From positions 1-44,055 of the IMG/VR virus record IMGVR_UViG_2778261667_000008: a DNA stretch of 44,055 nt. The stretch is one strand, 5' to 3'. This document shows positions 16,425-27,955 of the stretch, one piece after another (position 1 is the first letter of the stretch; every line of letters starts with the position of its first letter). A program made the translations under genes and the position numbers. The stretch is from a virus. Lineage: Duplodnaviria > Heunggongvirae > Uroviricota > Caudoviricetes. The notes under the pieces were generated by a model, which was not told where the DNA came from, made no database searches, and saw nothing but the letters and a program-made list of their open reading frames with translations.

Positions 16425-17493
16425 CACTCCTTAATCTGGCATCAACCACATTAATATTGATCGCCACAGGCTGGGGATGTTCATTATCCTCCACCGTTTC
16501 GATCTCTTTGCGCAGCTTCTGGTTTTCCATTCTGCGCCGTTCAATTTCCAGTTCCTGTAGCCGCTTATCTGCACATAATGCCCCGCCAGCAGAAAGCAAA
16601 CGCAACAATTCACGCCGGGCGGCAGCCTTATCCTCCAGCAGGATCTCAACACCGTATTTTCCGAGCTTTGACCCTGCATATAATTGCCGCGCATCCCCAT
16701 CAAGCAGTGTGGTATCAGCCATATAAAGCTGTCCCGTTCCCTCACCGCAGCACTTCGGGCAATCCGGATTGGGTATGGCGTTATCAACAAAGCCGAGGCC
16801 TCCATATTCCGGCTCGGGTTTACCATCTCTGGAGGCCTGTGCCGCAGCCTTATCGAATTCTGCAATATCACGCCACTGGTAGAGATGATTCTCGCCCCAG
16901 CAATAACGGCAGTTAACACGGCGAAATTGTGCCAACTGATTGGGGTCGGCCTGGACAATGGCCATCAACTGGCTCACCAGTAAATCCAGGTCTGCGGTAT
17001 AGCGTTTCTGGTACTGATTGCGGAAGTAGCTGATAGCACGATAAACCCTGGCATTTCTAAGCATACGGCTGGCGTTGCTGTTAGCTGTCGCACCTTGCCC
17101 CTCATAACCAGCCAGTCGGTATGCCTCTGTCGGCTTTTTCCCCTGAGCAACCAACATGGCGAATTTTGCCTGCTGGTCAGAAATACCGAATTCATCGGGG
17201 CAGAACGAAATTTCTTCCGTGTCCCCCTCAATCAGGAATGCATCGGATACAGCCTTTTTTTTCTGAGATTTTCCGTTCTGCCTTTGCGCAGTCTGCGCAG
17301 TTTTTTTTCGCGCACTTTTTTGCGCAGTTTTGCGCATTTCTTTCTGCGCATTTTTCGGAGTTTTTTTGATGTAACGACGGGCTGTTGCGTAGTTCAGTCC
17401 CCTTGCTTCACACCATGCCACCGGAGATATACCGGAGCGGGTGTATTCAGCAATATACTCCTGCTGCAACGCCCCCCAGTCCGGTCTGCTCAT
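16399..17493 (-). CDS. Terminase small subunit-like DNA-binding protein
   Basis: 364 aa; N-terminal HTH-like segment, lysine-rich low-complexity linker, Cys-rich C-terminal half (CRYCWGE...CPKCCGE); directly upstream of and overlapping the terminase large subunit. Confidence 0.5.
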   Translation of the reverse strand: MSRPDWGALQQEYIAEYTRSGISPVAWCEARGLNYATARRYIKKTPKNAQKEMRKTAQKSARKKTAQTAQRQNGKSQKKKAVSDAFLIEGDTEEISFCPDEFGISDQQAKFAMLVAQGKKPTEAYRLAGYEGQGATANSNASRMLRNARVYRAISYFRNQYQKRYTADLDLLVSQLMAIVQADPNQLAQFRRVNCRYCWGENHLYQWRDIAEFDKAAAQASRDGKPEPEYGGLGFVDNAIPNPDCPKCCGEGTGQLYMADTTLLDGDARQLYAGSKLGKYGVEILLEDKAAARRELLRLLSAGGALCADKRLQELEIERRRMENQKLRKEIETVEDNEHPQPVAININVVDARLRSDEDDLSDA

Positions 17494-22822: not shown

Positions 22823-23038
22823 TTACTCTCCTCTCGCAGCCTTTCTTCTGTCTTCTCTGATTTTGAAGTACAGATTTGTCAGATAAGTCAAAAAGCCCAG
22901 AACCAGACTTCCCAGCACACCAATTGCAGCCCACTGTGACGAACTGACCTGATCCAGCCACTGTAAAAACCAGTATCCAGCACTGCCTGCGGAGGTGCCG
23001 TAGGCAATGCCCGTTGTTAACTTGTCCATGGATTTCAT
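22823..23038 (-). CDS. Class II holin (phage 21 S / pinholin type) with dual-start motif
   Basis: 71 aa starting MKSMDK (Met1 and Met4 starts at 23038 and 23029), two TM segments, charged C-terminus; GGAGG SD. Confidence 0.85.
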
Positions 23039-23254
23039 AGCCTCACCTCCGAGAATTCGGATGGTGCTAAACGTAGGGTCCAGGCTCTCAGATTTACTAA
23101 CAAGAAGTCAGAGATGTTATCCGTAGCCTGACAATGAAAAAGCCCTGGTACATGCAAGGGCCTGATGAAGTACCAGATTAAGAATCTGGCGGCATAACCT
23201 CGCACTTGATATCGTTACATCGCCAAAAGTAACAACTATCAATGGAGAAAATGA

Positions 23255-23767
23255 ATGGAACTATTTTTGGTTGATCGCCGAGGAATATACTCAACTGGCG
23301 ATATTGTTACACCAAAGCGATTCTCCGATATAAGTCCTGTCGAAATGTCATCTCTGGTAGACAAACTTTTTCCGTGCGGGCTTGCACCACATGGCGAGGG
23401 ATACCTTATTAACAATGCGGCAAAAAATTATAATAAAAACGAATTCATCGACTGGGGGTTAGAGTTTTACCGAAGAGGAGTTTACCCGCAAAAACCTTCT
23501 CGCTATACGTCACTCTTCGCATGGGGTAACCTGGAGGAGGCTAAACATTTTCGACTTACAGACGGGAAACCATCAGATAAAATCTTCATAATACAAACAG
23601 ATAGTTATCATCGCGGAGATATGTCATTATTAAGAAATGATACATCAGTACTGGAATTCACCTACAGAATGGAACTTTACTGGGCAGGTAAAACCTTTAA
23701 CCCTGATCCAGTCTGGGAATACATTTGTCCGCTACCAGTAACTATCGGTGAACAAGTCCTTGCTTAA
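23255..23767 (+). CDS. Hypothetical 170-aa protein (moron between Q-like gene and lysis cassette)
   Basis: ATG at 23255 with GGAG SD; AT-rich; antisense to the late-operon direction; no family recognised. Confidence 0.55.
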   Translation: MELFLVDRRGIYSTGDIVTPKRFSDISPVEMSSLVDKLFPCGLAPHGEGYLINNAAKNYNKNEFIDWGLEFYRRGVYPQKPSRYTSLFAWGNLEEAKHFRLTDGKPSDKIFIIQTDSYHRGDMSLLRNDTSVLEFTYRMELYWAGKTFNPDPVWEYICPLPVTIGEQVLA

Positions 23768-24021
23768 TCCCCTTCATCCCAATAAAGACCTTTCGCGACA
23801 CAATGGGGGCGGTAAGGATAGCAATAACTTGCTCTGACGTTACCAACCAGCGTACCACTTTCTTTGAATGCCTTATCTCCGTTCCTGAGCTGTGATAAGG
23901 CCTTTTCAAGTTCAGCTATCGCGACAGCCACGTCTTCGCTTTCTACATACAGTGAAAAACCTTTAATGGGTGAACTCATGGTAAGTTGGCTCATAGATAT
24001 TTGATGATGGTGTGAGTGCAT
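23764..24021 (-). CDS. Hypothetical 85-aa protein
   Basis: Track ORF 23764..24066; the best start is the ATG at 24021 (MHSHHHQISM...) preceded by GGGAGA; its stop overlaps the stop of the convergent 170-aa gene. Confidence 0.4.
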   Translation of the reverse strand: MHSHHHQISMSQLTMSSPIKGFSLYVESEDVAVAIAELEKALSQLRNGDKAFKESGTLVGNVRASYCYPYRPHCVAKGLYWDEGD

Positions 24022-24410
24022 AAATAGTCTCCCAGTGAAAGAAAATTCGAGTTGTGCTGTTACCATATCAAGGATGCTACTTATTTCTATATGAAAACAA
24101 TAATAATCATTTAATATGCATAATTATAATTAGCCATCAAGCATTCAAGAAACCATCAAGATATTGATATAAATCACCACAAAACCAATATCGCCTCATA
24201 AAATACCTACGATTCTTTGTCTGTCGGAATCTTTTGTAAATCCTTGTTCTTCTCACCATGAATTTTCACGGGCTCCTCTTCCGGGGAGCTATTTTTTATC
24301 GTAAATAACCACTCATTACAGATGAATTGACCAAAATCAATATCCGTCACAGACATAGAGCAATAGAATTAATAACGTACGCGGTTACTTATATACTTCC
24401 TTTATTCACA

Positions 24411-24438
24411 AGCGACTCTTTAACGGGTCGCTTTTTTT
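24411..24438 (+). terminator. Intrinsic terminator-like hairpin
   Basis: AGCGAC-TCTTTAACGG-GTCGCT followed by TTTTTTT. Confidence 0.5.
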
Positions 24439-24566
24439 CGGACTATCACCGACACAATGTCAAAAAAAAGATCTGCATCACAAAAAAACTTATAAAAAAA
24501 TCACAAAATCCAAAACTCCACTACATAAACACTAATAAATATTGCTTCACATATTTTCATACTAGT

Positions 24567-24588
24567 GCCCTCGCAAGAGGGCTTTTTT
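24567..24588 (+). terminator. Intrinsic terminator-like hairpin
   Basis: GCCCTC-GCAA-GAGGGC followed by TTTTTT. Confidence 0.55.
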
Positions 24589-24728
24589 ATCTGGATGAAA
24601 AACAATCAACCATTAATAATGACATAGTAATATTGACTAAGGTCAAGGAAAAACAAATCATGACACCTAAAGATATAAGAGTTTTTCTGGAGGCGAATTT
24701 TAAAATGCATTAGATTTTACGGCTCTTT

Positions 24729-24755
24729 CACGGGCCGTTTTTTTGCCTGAAATTA
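24729..24755 (+). terminator. Intrinsic terminator-like hairpin
   Basis: ACGGC-TCTTTCACGG-GCCGT followed by TTTTTTT; loop nearly identical to the hairpin at 24411. Confidence 0.5.
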
Positions 24756-24864
24756 TGCCAGAAGCCGTGCTGCATCATCTCACCAACATCAACGTCTCCT
24801 CAGTCCTGAATTAAGACTACGTGGTGATTTTTAGCCTAAAATCCCTGCCAAATACTTTCTATAT

Positions 24865-24890
24865 AAACAAAAAACCGCCCGTCAAGGCGG
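24865..24890 (-). terminator. Intrinsic terminator downstream of the Q-like gene (second of two)
   Basis: Minus-strand CCGCC-TTGACG-GGCGG followed by TTTTTTGTTT. Confidence 0.6.
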
Positions 24891-25155
24891 TAAAAAGATG
24901 GTTAGCTAAAGAGGTCATTATTATTATGATCTGAGGCGTCGGGTGCCTCCCGAAGTATATCAGCTCCTGACTAATACACTGTGGCTTCCCTCCCGCTAAA
25001 CAGTTATACCTTGCCACCCCCGCCCTGGGGAACACCTCAAGATCCTTAACAGATTAAAATACAGCATTAATAATATAAGTGATCTACATCACATTATTTA
25101 GGCATAGAAATATGCATCAAAACAACAACAATATATCAACACTAATATCTCATTT

Positions 25156-25185
25156 CTTACAGATACAAAAAAACCACCTTTAGGT
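25156..25185. terminator. Bidirectional intrinsic terminator just downstream of the Q-like gene (candidate tR')
   Basis: ACCACC-TTTA-GGTGGT flanked by an A-run on one side and a T-run on the other, so it reads as stem plus U-tail on either strand. Confidence 0.6.
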
Positions 25186-25270
25186 GGTTTTTTTGTATCC
25201 GTGGGATTGTTCGCCTCGCGATACAGCTTTGCGAAGCATAGCGAAATTGAAGCAGTTTATACGTAAGAAA

Positions 25271-25933
25271 TCAAGCCATTTTCTCAGCAAATGATTCACG
25301 CATGGGAATATATAGGACATACTCAGCAACAGCTAACCAATTAGCAATCCGTTTTTCGCATGTGCTAAAACACCACTCTGGGTGTGCATCATGTAGCAAT
25401 TCAGCCATTTTACGCTTAGTCATCCCCCGCCCTTCATAGCGTTGCCGGAGAATGCAAATCAATCCTGGATGCTCTGCCAGCACCTCACTTATGACTCGAT
25501 CAATACATAACGCCTCTGCATCAGTACAATGCGCCAGCCAGCTCTTTTGCTTGCCGTTGATCATCTCTCTCAAAAACGCTTCCAGCTCAGCTTTCTCTAT
25601 TCCCGCTTTTTTCATTCTGCGCAGGGCTTCATTGATGGCTGTTTTCGTCAATTTTTGGGATGCCAACAACTGATTGAACATATTTCCTGACCTGCCACCG
25701 CCAATATACGACCAGCGCCCCCACATACGCAGTTTGCCCTGAATCCAGACACTTTCCAGCGTGGCGAGACGAAGGTGTTCTCCGCTTTTTCCTGTATTCG
25801 TTGGGTAAATCACAAATATCCCTCCTTTCTCCAGATTTCTTGTGTGCGAAAAACACCTTCTGCATGCATCAGGCGTAATTCTTCTTTGGTGTAATCGCTG
25901 GTTTTTACCCGCCCGTCGATTAGATCGTGGCAT
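25271..25933 (-). CDS. Putative late-gene antiterminator (Q-like by position)
   Basis: Last gene before two tandem terminators and about 2.2 kb upstream of the lysis cassette; Cys/His-containing. The track start at 25933 overlaps the upstream gene by 124 nt; alternative ATGs at 25726 and 25681 would give a 151- or 137-aa product. Family not recognised by eye. Confidence 0.45.
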   Translation of the reverse strand: MPRSNRRAGKNQRLHQRRITPDACRRCFSHTRNLEKGGIFVIYPTNTGKSGEHLRLATLESVWIQGKLRMWGRWSYIGGGRSGNMFNQLLASQKLTKTAINEALRRMKKAGIEKAELEAFLREMINGKQKSWLAHCTDAEALCIDRVISEVLAEHPGLICILRQRYEGRGMTKRKMAELLHDAHPEWCFSTCEKRIANWLAVAEYVLYIPMRESFAEKMA

Positions 25934-27168: not shown

Positions 27169-27324
27169 TTACTCCTCAGGTTCGTAAGCTGTGAAGACAG
27201 CGACCTCCGTCTGACCGGTTCGGATTCGCACCTCGCAGAGGTCTTTCCTCGTTACCAGTGCCGTCACTATGACGGTTAAACAGATGACAATCAGTGCGAC
27301 TAACATCGCCTTTTGCTGCTTCAT
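27169..27324 (-). CDS. hokD: Hok/Gef-family type I toxin
   Basis: MKQQKAMLVALIVICLTVIVTALVTRKDLCEVRIRTGQTEVAVFTAYEPEE is near-identical to my recollection of HokD (RelF); AAGGAGAAG SD; the track ORF extends 19 codons upstream in frame; perfect 9-bp stem-loop (27138..27159) in the 3' region. Confidence 0.8.
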   Translation of the reverse strand: MKQQKAMLVALIVICLTVIVTALVTRKDLCEVRIRTGQTEVAVFTAYEPEE

Positions 27325-27955
27325 AGCCTGCTTCTCCTTGCCTTCCGGCGCGTAAGAGGCTAACCTACATGTGCAAAGCATGAAATTGGCCTCAGATTAA
27401 TGTTAAGCGTCTTGCCGGACGCGTAATGTTATCTGGGGCTTTTCTCTATCTGCCGTTGGTGTTCATGCCCGAGGCAGATAGCCTCAAGCACCCGCAGCAA
27501 TTCTACTTAACCCCCGTCACCTCGCCAATATAAAATCAATCAGAAAGGCGATCCATAAGAACAACAGCAAGACAATAAATTGCCATTACAGCCGCAATAG
27601 CTAGCGCACATTTGAGAACCAGCACGACAACCTCCTGTATTGGGCGTACACCAGTCCTGATAAATATGAGGATGTCTCGTCAGTGATTCAATGCAACTAT
27701 TGGGTATAGTTTCTGTGATTTTGTTCTGTAGAAATGGAACACAACAACCAGTCACCATCCGCTCTTCTTTAAATGCGCTAAGTCAGACACAAGCCAACAT
27801 TTTAGTTGGCTTTGAGCGTTCTGGAGATGCGACATTGCTAACAGCCTTTTGAATGAACTAATCGGGGGCTAGTCATAACGGGCATAGCAGTCTCCAAGTA
27901 AGCAAGACTTTGCCATACAGAATGGAGCTAAGTTATTCATCAAATCTCCTTAAAT

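What the first reader, a model, noticed from the sequence alone, without database searches (positions are those of the whole stretch)
24411..24755. Three plus-strand terminator hairpins in 350 bp, two with nearly identical 10-nt loops but different stems
Seen: hairpins AGCGAC-TCTTTAACGG-GTCGCT (24411), GCCCTC-GCAA-GAGGGC (24567) and ACGGC-TCTTTCACGG-GCCGT (24729), each followed by a run of 6-7 T. The first and third share the loop sequence TCTTT(A/C)ACGG with completely different stem sequences, a covariation pattern expected of a functional RNA element rather than chance. They lie on the strand opposite to the late operon in an AT-rich region whose only long ORF (24327..24713) I judge spurious. 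They could be 3' ends of small RNAs, or protein-binding hairpins.
Basis: seen in the sequence. Interest (0 to 1): 0.5.

Follow-up and report, generated by a model that had tools for sequence, protein, structure and literature searches.

The report
Four tandem antisense terminators, prophage late leader
Between the late-gene activator Q and the lysis genes of an E. coli lambdoid prophage lie four, not three, textbook transcription-terminator hairpins on the strand opposite the late genes; they most likely end short antisense RNAs or block antisense transcription, an ordinary kind of feature whose RNAs, if real, would be new.

Summary
The hairpins are real. Each is followed by a run of 5-6 T, and they end 143-156 nt apart. 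Dinucleotide shuffles of the 819-nt AT-rich module give 0.05 such sites.

G·U pairs and the T-tails show that the plus-strand RNA is the folded species. The late operon (Q-like DUF1133 gene, holin, lysozyme) is on the minus strand.

The "identical loop, completely different stems" claim is overstated. Hairpins 1 and 3 align in register (15/18). They share three apical pairs and a 6-nt loop, and they differ by two compensatory pair changes. With two sequences and p of about 0.01, this is weak. Apexes of this type (CUC-UUAAnC-GGG) also recur on many unrelated phage terminator stems.

The position and orientation match the "convergent sRNAs in the PR' moron site" of Stx prophages: antisense AsxR/AgvB next to STnc100. 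A sub-threshold STnc100-like element lies alongside. There is no Rfam match, no strong promoter and no diverged homologue.

Best reading (about 0.45): 3' ends of short Hfq-type antisense RNAs. Main rival (about 0.3): a pure barrier against antisense transcription. This is a new member of a known kind, of modest interest.

The parts
24272..24297 (+). H0: terminator hairpin GCUCCUC-UUCC-GGGGAGC (24272-24289) followed by U-A-U6.
   Evidence: Terminator scan. Fold -14.7 kcal/mol, z -3.2. The 24273 C>T variant in L002 keeps the pair as U.G.
24410..24438 (+). H1: terminator hairpin AAGCGACUC-UUUAAC-GGGUCGCUU (24410-24433) followed by U5. UUUAUU lies 5 nt upstream of the stem.
   Evidence: -13.1 kcal/mol, z -4.6; the minus-strand version is weaker, -10.6. 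Upstream U-rich stretch.
24567..24588 (+). H2: terminator hairpin GCCCUC-GCAA-GAGGGC (GNRA tetraloop) followed by U6.
   Evidence: The weak isrD hit (16.4 bits) rests on the terminator only.
24719..24744 (+). H3: terminator hairpin ACGGCUC-UUUCAC-GGGCCGU (24719-24738) followed by U6. AUUUU lies directly upstream. Its apex is paralogous to that of H1.
   Evidence: In-register alignment with H1.
24044..24862 (.). AT-rich (31-37% G+C) non-coding module that carries the four hairpins. On the plus strand C exceeds G and A exceeds T. Its left boundary is at 24043/24044, where homology with other carriers of the neighbouring two-gene module ends.
   Evidence: Composition. Boundary. No plausible ORF. 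Not annotated in RefSeq copies.
24369..24397 (+). Weak promoter-like site TTAATA-17-TATACT. The predicted start near 24404 would give an RNA of about 35 nt ending at H1. TAGAAT at 24364 would give about 65 nt.
   Evidence: This is a consensus match only.
24633..24661 (+). Promoter-like site TTGACT-17-AATCAT. The predicted start near 24668 would give an RNA of about 78 nt ending at H3.
   Evidence: This is a consensus match only. Promoter-like sites in the region are not enriched over shuffles (7 found against 8.3 expected).
24865..25065 (-). STnc100-like element on the late strand, ending in the minus-strand terminator ACCGCC-UUGA-CGGGCGGU (24891-24874) followed by U5. It is convergent with H3, 120-130 nt away.
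   Evidence: Rfam RF02076, 25.7 bits (gathering score 47), E 0.0025-0.013, full-length model match. A bona fide STnc100 sits back to back with AsxR in Sakai Sp5.
25093..25120 (-). Promoter-like site TTGATG-16-AATAAT upstream of the STnc100-like element.
   Evidence: This is a consensus match only.
25159..25202 (.). Perfect 21-nt inverted repeat with A7 and T7 flanks: a bidirectional terminator. On the minus strand it is the presumed tR' of the late promoter.
   Evidence: I1. Fold -29 kcal/mol, z -9.9. Insertions occur at this site in L238 and L245.
25209..25270 (-). Stretch just downstream of Q that travels with the DUF1133 Q gene in more than 1,400 E. coli genomes. I infer it to be the PR'/Q-utilisation region.
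   Evidence: 1,411 genomes match only this end of the query. Loci L056-L058. The function is inferred, not shown.
25271..25816 (-). Q-like late antiterminator gene (DUF1133).
   Evidence: Pfam DUF1133, E 4e-106, plus Phage_antitermQ. phrog_753 'anti-termination protein Q-like'.
23764..23994 (-). 76-aa hypothetical gene, the first ORF on the late strand after the non-coding leader.
   Evidence: RefSeq annotation of identical copies. No family match.
23255..23767 (+). 170-aa gene on the same strand as the hairpins, 504 nt upstream of H0. It is the only plus-strand gene whose read-through the array could stop.
   Evidence: phrog_5663, E 2e-59. No terminator lies between 23767 and 24271.
22823..23038 (-). 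Class II holin gene, the start of the lysis cassette.
   Evidence: Pfam Phage_holin_2_1. RefSeq annotation.

Best explanation
The four hairpins are Rho-independent terminators for plus-strand transcription, that is, transcription running against the late operon. They sit in the 'moron' insertion site between the Q-dependent late promoter and the lysis genes.

My preferred reading is that they mark the 3' ends of three or four short transcription units of about 35-110 nt each. Each unit would have an unstructured C/A-rich body, a U-rich stretch, a terminator hairpin and a U-tail, which is the architecture of Hfq-binding sRNAs. The units would be expressed from weak promoters in the AT-rich spacers in the lysogen. 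They are convergent with an STnc100-like RNA on the late strand, as AsxR and AgvB are in Stx prophages.

H1 and H3 would be paralogues that kept the terminator, with two compensatory stem changes, while the 5' 'seed' parts diverged. As a side effect the array also stops any antisense transcription before it reaches tR', PR' and Q.

Shown: the structures, their strand, their excess over chance, and their position and orientation. Inferred: that transcripts start in the spacers, that they bind Hfq, and that they act in trans or on the late leader.
For: - Four canonical terminators on one strand in 470 nt, against 0.05 expected.
- Plus-strand-specific U.G pairs, and a polymorphism that keeps the stem only on the plus strand.
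- No ORF on either strand in the 143-156-nt units. The only long ORF is spurious.
- Three of the four hairpins have UUUU within the 16 nt upstream of the stem and the fourth has UUUAUU. The background frequency is 13% (p about 0.009, post hoc). All have U5-U6 tails beyond the stem. This is the Hfq-binding module named in the title of Ishikawa et al. 2012, cited in PMC4104026.
- The upstream bodies are unstructured.
- Position and orientation are those of the published 'convergent sRNAs' downstream of PR' in lambdoid prophages: AsxR is 51-60 nt, antisense, and lies next to STnc100 (PMC4104026). I verified this in Sakai Sp5: STnc100 207.7 bits and AsxR 88.1 bits, back to back. An STnc100-like element lies next to H3 here.
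- Other Q-to-holin intervals inspected have 0-1 strong antisense terminators, so four in tandem looks like repeated units rather than one stop signal.
- sRNA genes such as PasA, PasC, PasD and STnc100 are known to populate exactly this Q-holin neighbourhood (bioRxiv 10.64898/2026.05.13.724894).
Against: - No convincing sigma-70 promoter lies in front of any hairpin, and none at all lies before H2. Promoter-like sites are not enriched (7 found against 8.3 expected in shuffles).
- No Rfam family matches, including AsxR and AgvB, even at E up to 10.
- No homologue more diverged than 98.6% exists in any collection searched, so there is no covariation or conservation evidence for the RNA bodies.
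- The H1/H3 similarity is only moderately beyond chance and involves a generically recurrent terminator apex.
- There are no expression data.
Confidence: 0.45

Rival explanations
1. The array is a pure transcriptional barrier. It would be a fail-safe series of intrinsic terminators with no RNA product of its own. It would stop plus-strand transcription from running head-on into tR', PR' and the Q gene and interfering with the late switch. Sources of such transcription would be read-through from the 170-aa plus-strand gene at 23255-23767 and spurious promoters in the AT-rich DNA.
For: - The 170-aa gene has no terminator of its own, and H0 is the first one downstream.
- No good promoters lie inside the array.
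- The plus strand is C-rich and G-poor, so it would also be a good Rho substrate, while the late-strand leader is G-rich and C-poor.
- All terminators point the same way, towards Q.
Against: - One or two strong terminators would suffice. Four spaced about 150 nt apart, each with a U-rich 5' flank, is more than a barrier needs.
- Other prophages carrying the same two-gene module lack any such array.
- H0 lies 504 nt beyond the stop codon.
Confidence: 0.3
2. The hairpins are relics. The module would be decayed cargo, former small genes or sRNA genes from an unknown donor, that rode into this prophage recently. The terminators would still fold but would have no present role.
For: - The module has no relatives. 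All copies are 98.6-99.8% identical, indicating recent spread, so intactness needs no selection.
- The AT-rich composition is typical of foreign DNA.
- No ORFs and no promoters are evident.
Against: - Four perfect stems with long T-tails and no disrupting mutation.
- The two compensatory changes between H1 and H3 imply past selection for pairing.
- The one stem polymorphism is pair-preserving.
Confidence: 0.18
3. The shared apex CUC-UUUMAC-GGG is a sequence-specific recognition element. It would be a binding site for a protein, or a kissing or pairing partner for another RNA, rather than just the top of a terminator.
For: - H1 and H3 keep 11 of 12 apical bases while their flanks show no similarity.
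- Related apexes recur on unrelated stems in many phages.
- AsxR is reported to act by pairing with a terminator loop, that of FnrS (PMC4104026).
Against: - Only two of the four hairpins share the apex.
- No partner sequence above chance level was found in the window. The best candidate is 24032-24042, matching 10 of 11.
- Recurrence on unrelated stems after unrelated genes fits a generally favourable terminator apex better than a locus-specific ligand.
- No candidate binding protein is known.
Confidence: 0.05

Closest known systems
AsxR / AgvB 'anti-sRNAs' (Rfam RF02703, RF02702): convergent sRNA genes in the PR' moron site of lambdoid Stx prophages (Tree et al. 2014, PMC4104026)
   Same: They are short units ending in a Rho-independent terminator with a hexaloop. 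They lie downstream of Q/PR', antisense to the late transcript and convergent with STnc100. Family members share the 3' terminator part and differ in the 5' part. All of this parallels H3, and H1 as its paralogue, next to the STnc100-like element.
   Different: There is no sequence or covariance-model similarity. The shared part here is about 25 nt, not about 42 nt. There are four units in tandem rather than one. The gap to the STnc100-like 3' end is 120-130 nt rather than 1-2 nt. AsxR has a clear TTGCGC-17-TAAAAT promoter, and nothing comparable is present here. Expression and Hfq binding are untested.
Ordinary Rho-independent (intrinsic) terminators of E. coli and its phages
   Same: G+C-rich stems of 6-9 bp, loops of 4-6 nt (including a GNRA tetraloop in H2) and T-runs of 5-6.
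   Different: They are 'orphan' terminators: no gene ends in front of them. There are four in tandem on the strand opposite the only operon that crosses the region.
Prophage sRNAs of the Q-holin neighbourhood: STnc100 (RF02076), PasA/PasC/PasD, Esr41
   Same: They occupy the same genomic niche and are sRNA genes with 3' terminator and poly-U, as described for Pas sRNAs next to Q and the holin/lysozyme operon (bioRxiv 10.64898/2026.05.13.724894).
   Different: Pas sRNAs occur in more than 1,300 complete genomes. This array matches only 6 of 5,426 complete E. coli genomes even with sensitive blastn, so it is not a Pas variant. STnc100 similarity exists only for the neighbouring minus-strand element, and below Rfam's threshold.
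Phage terminator apexes of the CUC-U(U)AAnC-GGG type, including T7 T-phi (CCUCUAAACGGG)
   Same: H1 has the apex CUC-UUUAAC-GGG with a U.G second pair. The identical apex tops at least 4 unrelated IMG/VR terminators and 1 metagenome terminator. CTCTTAATCGGG tops at least 49. T7 T-phi reads CCTCTAAACGGG.
   Different: This is a resemblance of about 12 nt only. No common descent or shared mechanism is shown. T7 T-phi has a pentaloop and a much longer, bulged stem.
Cis-antisense phage RNAs (lambda OOP, P22 sar); comparison from general knowledge, not tested here
   Same: They are short terminated transcripts made in the opposite direction to a phage operon, and can pair with it.
   Different: Those RNAs overlap coding or ribosome-binding regions of specific genes. 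Here the overlapped late-strand RNA is a non-coding leader.

Membership tests
Rho-independent terminator | G+C-rich hairpin (at least 5 bp, loop 3-8 nt) immediately followed by a U-run | tested here: met
   All four pass the scan and fold at -11 to -15 kcal/mol with z -2.2 to -4.6.
Rho-independent terminator | More frequent than the composition predicts, and strand-specific | tested here: met
   4 plus-strand and 0 minus-strand sites against 0.05 and 0.10 in 2000 shuffles. The U.G pairs are valid only on the plus strand.
Rho-independent terminator | RNA polymerase actually releases transcripts there | not testable with these tools
   This needs Term-seq or in vitro transcription.
AsxR (RF02703) / AgvB (RF02702) anti-sRNA family | Match to the Rfam covariance model at or above the gathering score (the conserved 3' region of about 42 nt) | tested here: not met
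   No AsxR or AgvB hit in 24000-25100 even at E up to 10. The positive control in Sakai Sp5 scores 88.1 bits.
AsxR (RF02703) / AgvB (RF02702) anti-sRNA family | Location downstream of PR', antisense to the late transcript, convergent with a late-strand sRNA (STnc100) | tested here: met
   H3 is convergent with the STnc100-like element, and Q is upstream on the minus strand. The gap is 120-130 nt rather than 1-2 nt.
AsxR (RF02703) / AgvB (RF02702) anti-sRNA family | Own promoter giving a 51-60-nt primary transcript that binds Hfq and antagonises a core sRNA | tested here: inconclusive
   Only weak promoter-like sites were found. Expression, Hfq binding and targets cannot be tested here.
Hfq-binding sRNA module (Ishikawa et al. 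2012, as cited in PMC4104026) | [quoted passage not shown] | tested here: met
   UUUU or UUUAUU lies within 16 nt upstream of all four stems, against a 13% background, and the tails are U5-U6 beyond the stem. Binding itself is untested.
STnc100 (RF02076), for the neighbouring minus-strand element 24865-25065 | Covariance-model score at or above the gathering score of 47 bits | tested here: not met
   25.7 bits, E 0.0025, full-length alignment with a shared CGGGAGGCACCCG hairpin. It is best called STnc100-like.
Pas sRNAs (PasA-D) | blastn-level similarity to the E2348/69 Pas genes, which occur in more than 1,300 complete genomes | tested here: not met
   This test is indirect. Sensitive blastn of 24200-24860 and of H1 and H3 alone hits only the 6 genomes that carry this same module. 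Pas sequences themselves were not available for comparison.
Type I toxin-antitoxin (Ibs/Sib-like) | Small hydrophobic toxin ORF fully overlapped by an antisense RNA, with homology to a known toxin | tested here: not met
   The minus-strand 19-aa ORF 24560-24501 (MKICEAIFISVYVVEFWIL) has a GAGG 8 nt upstream inside H2. However, it carries two acidic residues, has no terminator, has no equivalent at the other hairpins, and matches no family.

The most novel reading that the evidence does not exclude
The array is a tandem cluster of three or four previously undescribed Hfq-type sRNA genes carried by a Rac/Qin-like prophage. This includes a paralogous pair (H1 and H3 units) that kept a common terminator while their seed regions diverged. 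It would be a new anti-sRNA or sponge-like family, made in the lysogen, convergent with an STnc100 relative and antisense to the late leader.

A separate possibility concerns the apex they share. It belongs to a widespread class of phage terminator tops, undescribed so far as I can tell (CUC-UUAAnC-GGG on dozens of unrelated stems). That recurrence may point to a sequence-specific role in termination or RNA stability.
Probability: 0.3. Interest if true: 0.5.

Novelty: new member of a known kind. Interest (0 to 1): 0.3.

Why it matters
If the units are expressed, this prophage adds a small cluster of new regulatory RNAs to the known repertoire of prophage 'moron-site' sRNAs (AsxR, AgvB, STnc100, Pas). 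These RNAs rewire host regulation in pathogenic E. coli. The paralogue pair would illustrate how such genes diversify: a fixed terminator with changing seeds.

If the array is only a barrier, it is a neat but ordinary example of insulating the late switch from antisense transcription.

The side observation may be of wider practical interest for terminator prediction and design than the locus itself. One 12-nt apex tops dozens of unrelated phage terminators.

Tried and rejected
1. Homology searches for the array: megablast and blastn against phage records, plasmids and 5,426 complete E. coli genomes, plus IMG/VR, GTDB representatives and JGI metagenomes by pattern. Only copies at least 98.6% identical were found. 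The 4 GTDB hits were unrelated tandem repeats. No covariation analysis of the RNA bodies was therefore possible.

2. Rfam at permissive thresholds gave nothing on the plus strand except a terminator-only isrD hit.

3. A decayed gene or tRNA remnant of what other prophages carry downstream of the same Q (HTH/STM1630-family genes, tRNAs): tblastn and blastn were negative, and ARAGORN found none.

4. Small proteins: all ORFs of at least 8 aa on both strands were inspected. The best candidates are the plus-strand 17-aa MTPKDIRVFLEANFKMH with an AAGGA, and the minus-strand 19-aa MKICEAIFISVYVVEFWIL behind H2. Neither recurs at the other hairpins nor resembles a known family. A type I toxin-antitoxin reading was rejected.

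5. Units as diverged tandem duplicates: pairwise local alignments of the four units show nothing beyond the H1/H3 hairpin itself. The 10-mer TTTCACGGGC shared by H0's flank and H3 is at chance level for a 1.3-kb region.

6. Extra RNA structure upstream of the terminators: z-scores of -0.4 to -2.3, driven by the terminators.

7. 'Neutral' loop-permutation controls for the apex motif. One of them (CTCTTAATCGGG) turned out to be a real, very common terminator apex. The control design had to be re-read, and three further permutations were used.

8. The second matching place in strain PCP06235 could not be located. It is probably a near-identical second copy.
Full report
CONTEXT. The window is a Rac/Qin-like lambdoid prophage of E. 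coli. Identical or near-identical copies in RefSeq genomes are annotated with these genes on the minus strand: DUF1367, DUF1364, a DUF1133 protein (25271-25816), a class II holin (22823-23038), YdfR, lysozyme and Rz. In some strains trkG lies beyond them.

The DUF1133 protein is a Q-like late antiterminator. It matches Pfam DUF1133 at E 4e-106, also matches Phage_antitermQ, and matches phrog_753 'anti-termination protein Q-like'. The late operon therefore runs on the minus strand. The finding lies in the interval between Q and the holin, the classical 'moron' insertion site downstream of PR'.

WHAT IS IN THE Q-TO-HOLIN INTERVAL. Going down in coordinates from Q:
- A 62-nt stretch (25209-25270) that accompanies this Q gene in more than 1,400 E. 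coli genomes while everything downstream differs (loci L056-L058). I infer this to be PR' and its Q-utilisation site.
- A perfect 21-nt inverted repeat with A7/T7 flanks (25159-25202, -29 kcal/mol), which is a bidirectional terminator and presumably tR'.
- A promoter-like site (25120-25093) followed by a 200-nt element (25065-24865). This element aligns over the full length of Rfam STnc100, but at 25.7 bits against a gathering score of 47. It ends in a minus-strand terminator at 24891-24874.
- An 819-nt AT-rich stretch (24044-24862, 31-37% G+C) with no credible ORF.
- A 76-aa gene (23994-23764, minus strand) overlapping, tail to tail, a 170-aa gene (23255-23767, plus strand).

The two-gene pair is a separate mobile module. 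In strain C311 and five IMG/VR contigs it sits next to other genes, and homology to the window stops exactly at 24043.

THE OBSERVATION. All three hairpins exist, each with a T-run.

The third starts at 24719, not 24729.

The '10-nt loops' are better drawn as 6-nt loops (UUUAAC, UUUCAC) closed by C-G, U.G and C-G pairs. This gives stems of 9 and 7 bp.

It also has a CUC/GGG top with a U.G pair.

The stem ends are 143, 149 and 156 nt apart.

The cluster is not chance. There are 4 plus-strand and 0 minus-strand sites, against means of 0.05 and 0.10 in 2000 dinucleotide-preserving shuffles. Only 27 sites occur in the whole 44-kb window, both strands, under lax criteria.

The plus-strand RNA is the relevant species. 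The T-runs are 3' on that strand. The U.G pairs in H0, H1 and H3 become C.A mismatches on the other strand, and the folds are 2.5-2.7 kcal/mol weaker there. The only polymorphism inside a stem (24273 C>T in PCP06235) converts C-G to U.G.

THE 'COVARIATION' ARGUMENT. H1 and H3 align in register: CGACTCTTTAACGGGTCGC and CGGCTCTTTCACGGGCCGT. Five of seven stem pairs are the same. Two differ by double changes (A-U to G-C, and G-C to A-U), and one loop base differs. The stems are therefore not 'completely different', although there are two genuine compensatory changes. Nothing outside the hairpin and T-run aligns.

How unusual is this similarity?
- Among 30 strong terminators from 240 kb of E. coli chromosome and the rest of the window (435 pairs), none reached the H1/H3 score of 12, and two reached 11.
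- With 6-10 pairs compared in this locus, the chance probability is of the order of 0.01. This is suggestive of common origin but not compelling.

The apex itself is also not locus-specific:
- CTCTTTAACGGG followed by a T-run tops four other independent hairpin families in IMG/VR (L007, L012/L033, L016 and the L029 group).
- An identical 26-nt copy of H1 occurs in an unrelated metagenome contig (L073).
- An H1-stem/H3-loop hybrid occurs in another (L074/L075).
- Three loop permutations used as controls gave 1 of 16, 0 of 16 and 0 of 12 hairpins.
- A fourth permutation, CTCTTAATCGGG, unexpectedly sat on at least 49 different stems in 89 loci, downstream of unrelated genes.
- In an arbitrary sample of CTCTTNNNCGGG + T-run sites, the hairpin-forming ones carried the loops TTAACC, TTAATC, TTAAAC, TTTAAC and TTAGAC.
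- T7 T-phi reads CCTCTAAACGGG at its top.

Apexes of the form CUC-U(U)AAnC-GGG are thus a recurrent top for phage terminators. Two neighbours sharing one is weaker evidence for a dedicated RNA element than it first looks.

COMPARATIVE EVIDENCE. The array is confined to one prophage lineage:
- 6 of 5,426 complete E. coli genomes.
- 3 IMG/VR contigs.
- Many draft assemblies. The adjacent 76-aa protein is on record in 367 blocks, and all 10 places inspected carry a 99.6-99.8% identical array.
- Nothing in phage or plasmid records, GTDB representatives or JGI metagenomes apart from the isolated hairpin look-alikes.

Variation among copies is too small to test conservation. About 10 variable sites lie in the array, and one of them, in a stem, is pair-preserving.

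WHAT IT MOST LIKELY IS. The closest precedent is Tree et al. 2014 (PMC4104026). The sequence downstream of the Q-antiterminated PR' promoter of lambdoid prophages carries convergent sRNA genes. The antisense members (AsxR, AgvB; 51-60 nt) share a conserved terminator-containing 3' part and have variable 5' ends.

I verified the arrangement in Sakai Sp5. STnc100 (207.7 bits) lies on the late strand, back to back with AsxR (88.1 bits) on the other strand.

The window has the same layout: an STnc100-like RNA on the late strand, convergent with plus-strand terminators. Three further points fit this reading:
- The four hairpins have the sequence hallmarks of the Hfq-binding module, namely a U-rich stretch within 16 nt upstream and a long U-tail.
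- The RNA upstream of them would be unstructured and C/A-rich.
- Other Q-to-holin intervals I inspected have 0-1 strong antisense terminators.

I therefore favour three or four short antisense-oriented transcription units (sRNA-like), with H1 and H3 as a paralogous pair, at a confidence of 0.45.

The weaknesses are real:
- Promoter-like sites are weak and not enriched. The best are TTGACT-17-AATCAT before H3 and TTAATA-17-TATACT before H1.
- None exists before H2, whereas AsxR has a clear TTGCGC-17-TAAAAT promoter.
- There is no Rfam hit.
- There are no diverged homologues and no expression data.

RIVALS.
- A pure barrier (0.3). The 170-aa plus-strand gene has no terminator of its own, and H0 is the first one it meets. 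The plus strand is also C-rich and G-poor, so it would be Rho-prone. All four hairpins face Q. But four evenly spaced terminators with U-rich 5' flanks exceed what a barrier needs, and other hosts of the two-gene module have no such array.
- Relics of decayed cargo (0.18). Recent clonal spread means intactness needs no selection, but the compensatory changes imply past selection.
- A sequence-specific ligand for the apex (0.05). No partner was found, and the apex is generic.

NOT MEMBERS OF. The hairpins are not members of AsxR/AgvB (covariance-model test failed). They are not Pas sRNAs (their distribution is incompatible). They are not a type I toxin-antitoxin system, since small ORFs behind the hairpins are not convincing. 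The neighbouring minus-strand element fails Rfam's STnc100 threshold and is best called STnc100-like.

VERDICT. This is a real, statistically solid cluster of four orphan plus-strand intrinsic terminators in the PR' moron site of a rare prophage module. The covariation argument is weak. The sRNA interpretation is plausible by analogy with AsxR/AgvB but unproven. It is a new member of a known kind, and I score its interest at about 0.3.

Noticed in passing
IMG/VR loci L081-L169 (e.g. L090 3312, L100, L114); also L007, L012, L016, L029: The 12-nt terminator apex CTCTTAATCGGG (CUC/GGG with a U.G pair, hexaloop UUAAUC) sits on at least 49 different lower stems, each followed by a T-run. It occurs once per locus, downstream of unrelated genes, many of which look like major capsid proteins. 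Related loops (UUAACC, UUAAAC, UUUAAC) behave likewise, and T7 T-phi has CCUCUAAACGGG. No paper in the library contains these strings except the T7 one.
   Followed up: partly
window 24865-25065 (-): STnc100-like element: Rfam RF02076, 25.7 bits against a gathering score of 47, full-length alignment with a shared CGGGAGGCACCCG hairpin. It has its own promoter-like site (25120-25093) and terminator (24891-24874). Its core (24922-25038) is 74.8% identical to an unannotated stretch in 116 E. coli plasmids, mostly conjugative (e.g. the IncF plasmid pVir68). It also matches phage SerU-LTIIb near tRNA genes.
   Followed up: partly
window 23255-23767 (+) and 23764-23994 (-): A convergent gene pair overlapping by 4 nt at the stop codons: 170 aa (phrog_5663; DUF2441 in precomputed Pfam hits) and 76 aa (no family). 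It moves as a unit between different lambdoid prophages. In C311 and five IMG/VR contigs it has other neighbours and is about 93% identical.
   Followed up: partly
window 27319-27493 (-) and 27169-27381 (-): A hok/sok type I toxin-antitoxin locus: sok RNA at 111.4 bits (gathering score 59), with a Hok-like ORF ending ...MKQQKAMLVALIVICLTVIVTALVTRKDLCEVRIRTGQTEVAVFTAYEPEE.
   Followed up: no
window 25159-25202; L238 and L245: The bidirectional terminator just downstream of Q is an insertion site in other copies of the prophage. An IS (rve transposase) interrupts it in GCA_000176615.2, and an insertion of about 200 bp interrupts it in GCA_002109925.1, both at about 25172-25183.
   Followed up: no
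window 17284-17300 and 17331-17350 (+): Two adjacent plus-strand terminator-like hairpins built on the same stem word TGCGCA (TTGCGCAGTCTGCGCAG + T8, and TGCGCATTTCTTTCTGCGCA + T5), 47 nt apart.
   Followed up: no
NZ_CM129869.1 (E. coli PCP06235), position unknown: Every query from 23040-25270 reports a second matching place in this chromosome. The contig look-up lists one 'similar place not shown', so the strain probably carries two near-identical copies of the module.
   Followed up: no
window 24044-24862: Strong strand asymmetry of composition: on the plus strand GC skew is -0.1 to -0.32 and AT skew up to +0.2. The long untranslated late-strand leader is therefore G-rich and C-poor, which would make it a poor Rho substrate, while antisense RNA would be C-rich and G-poor.
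   Followed up: no
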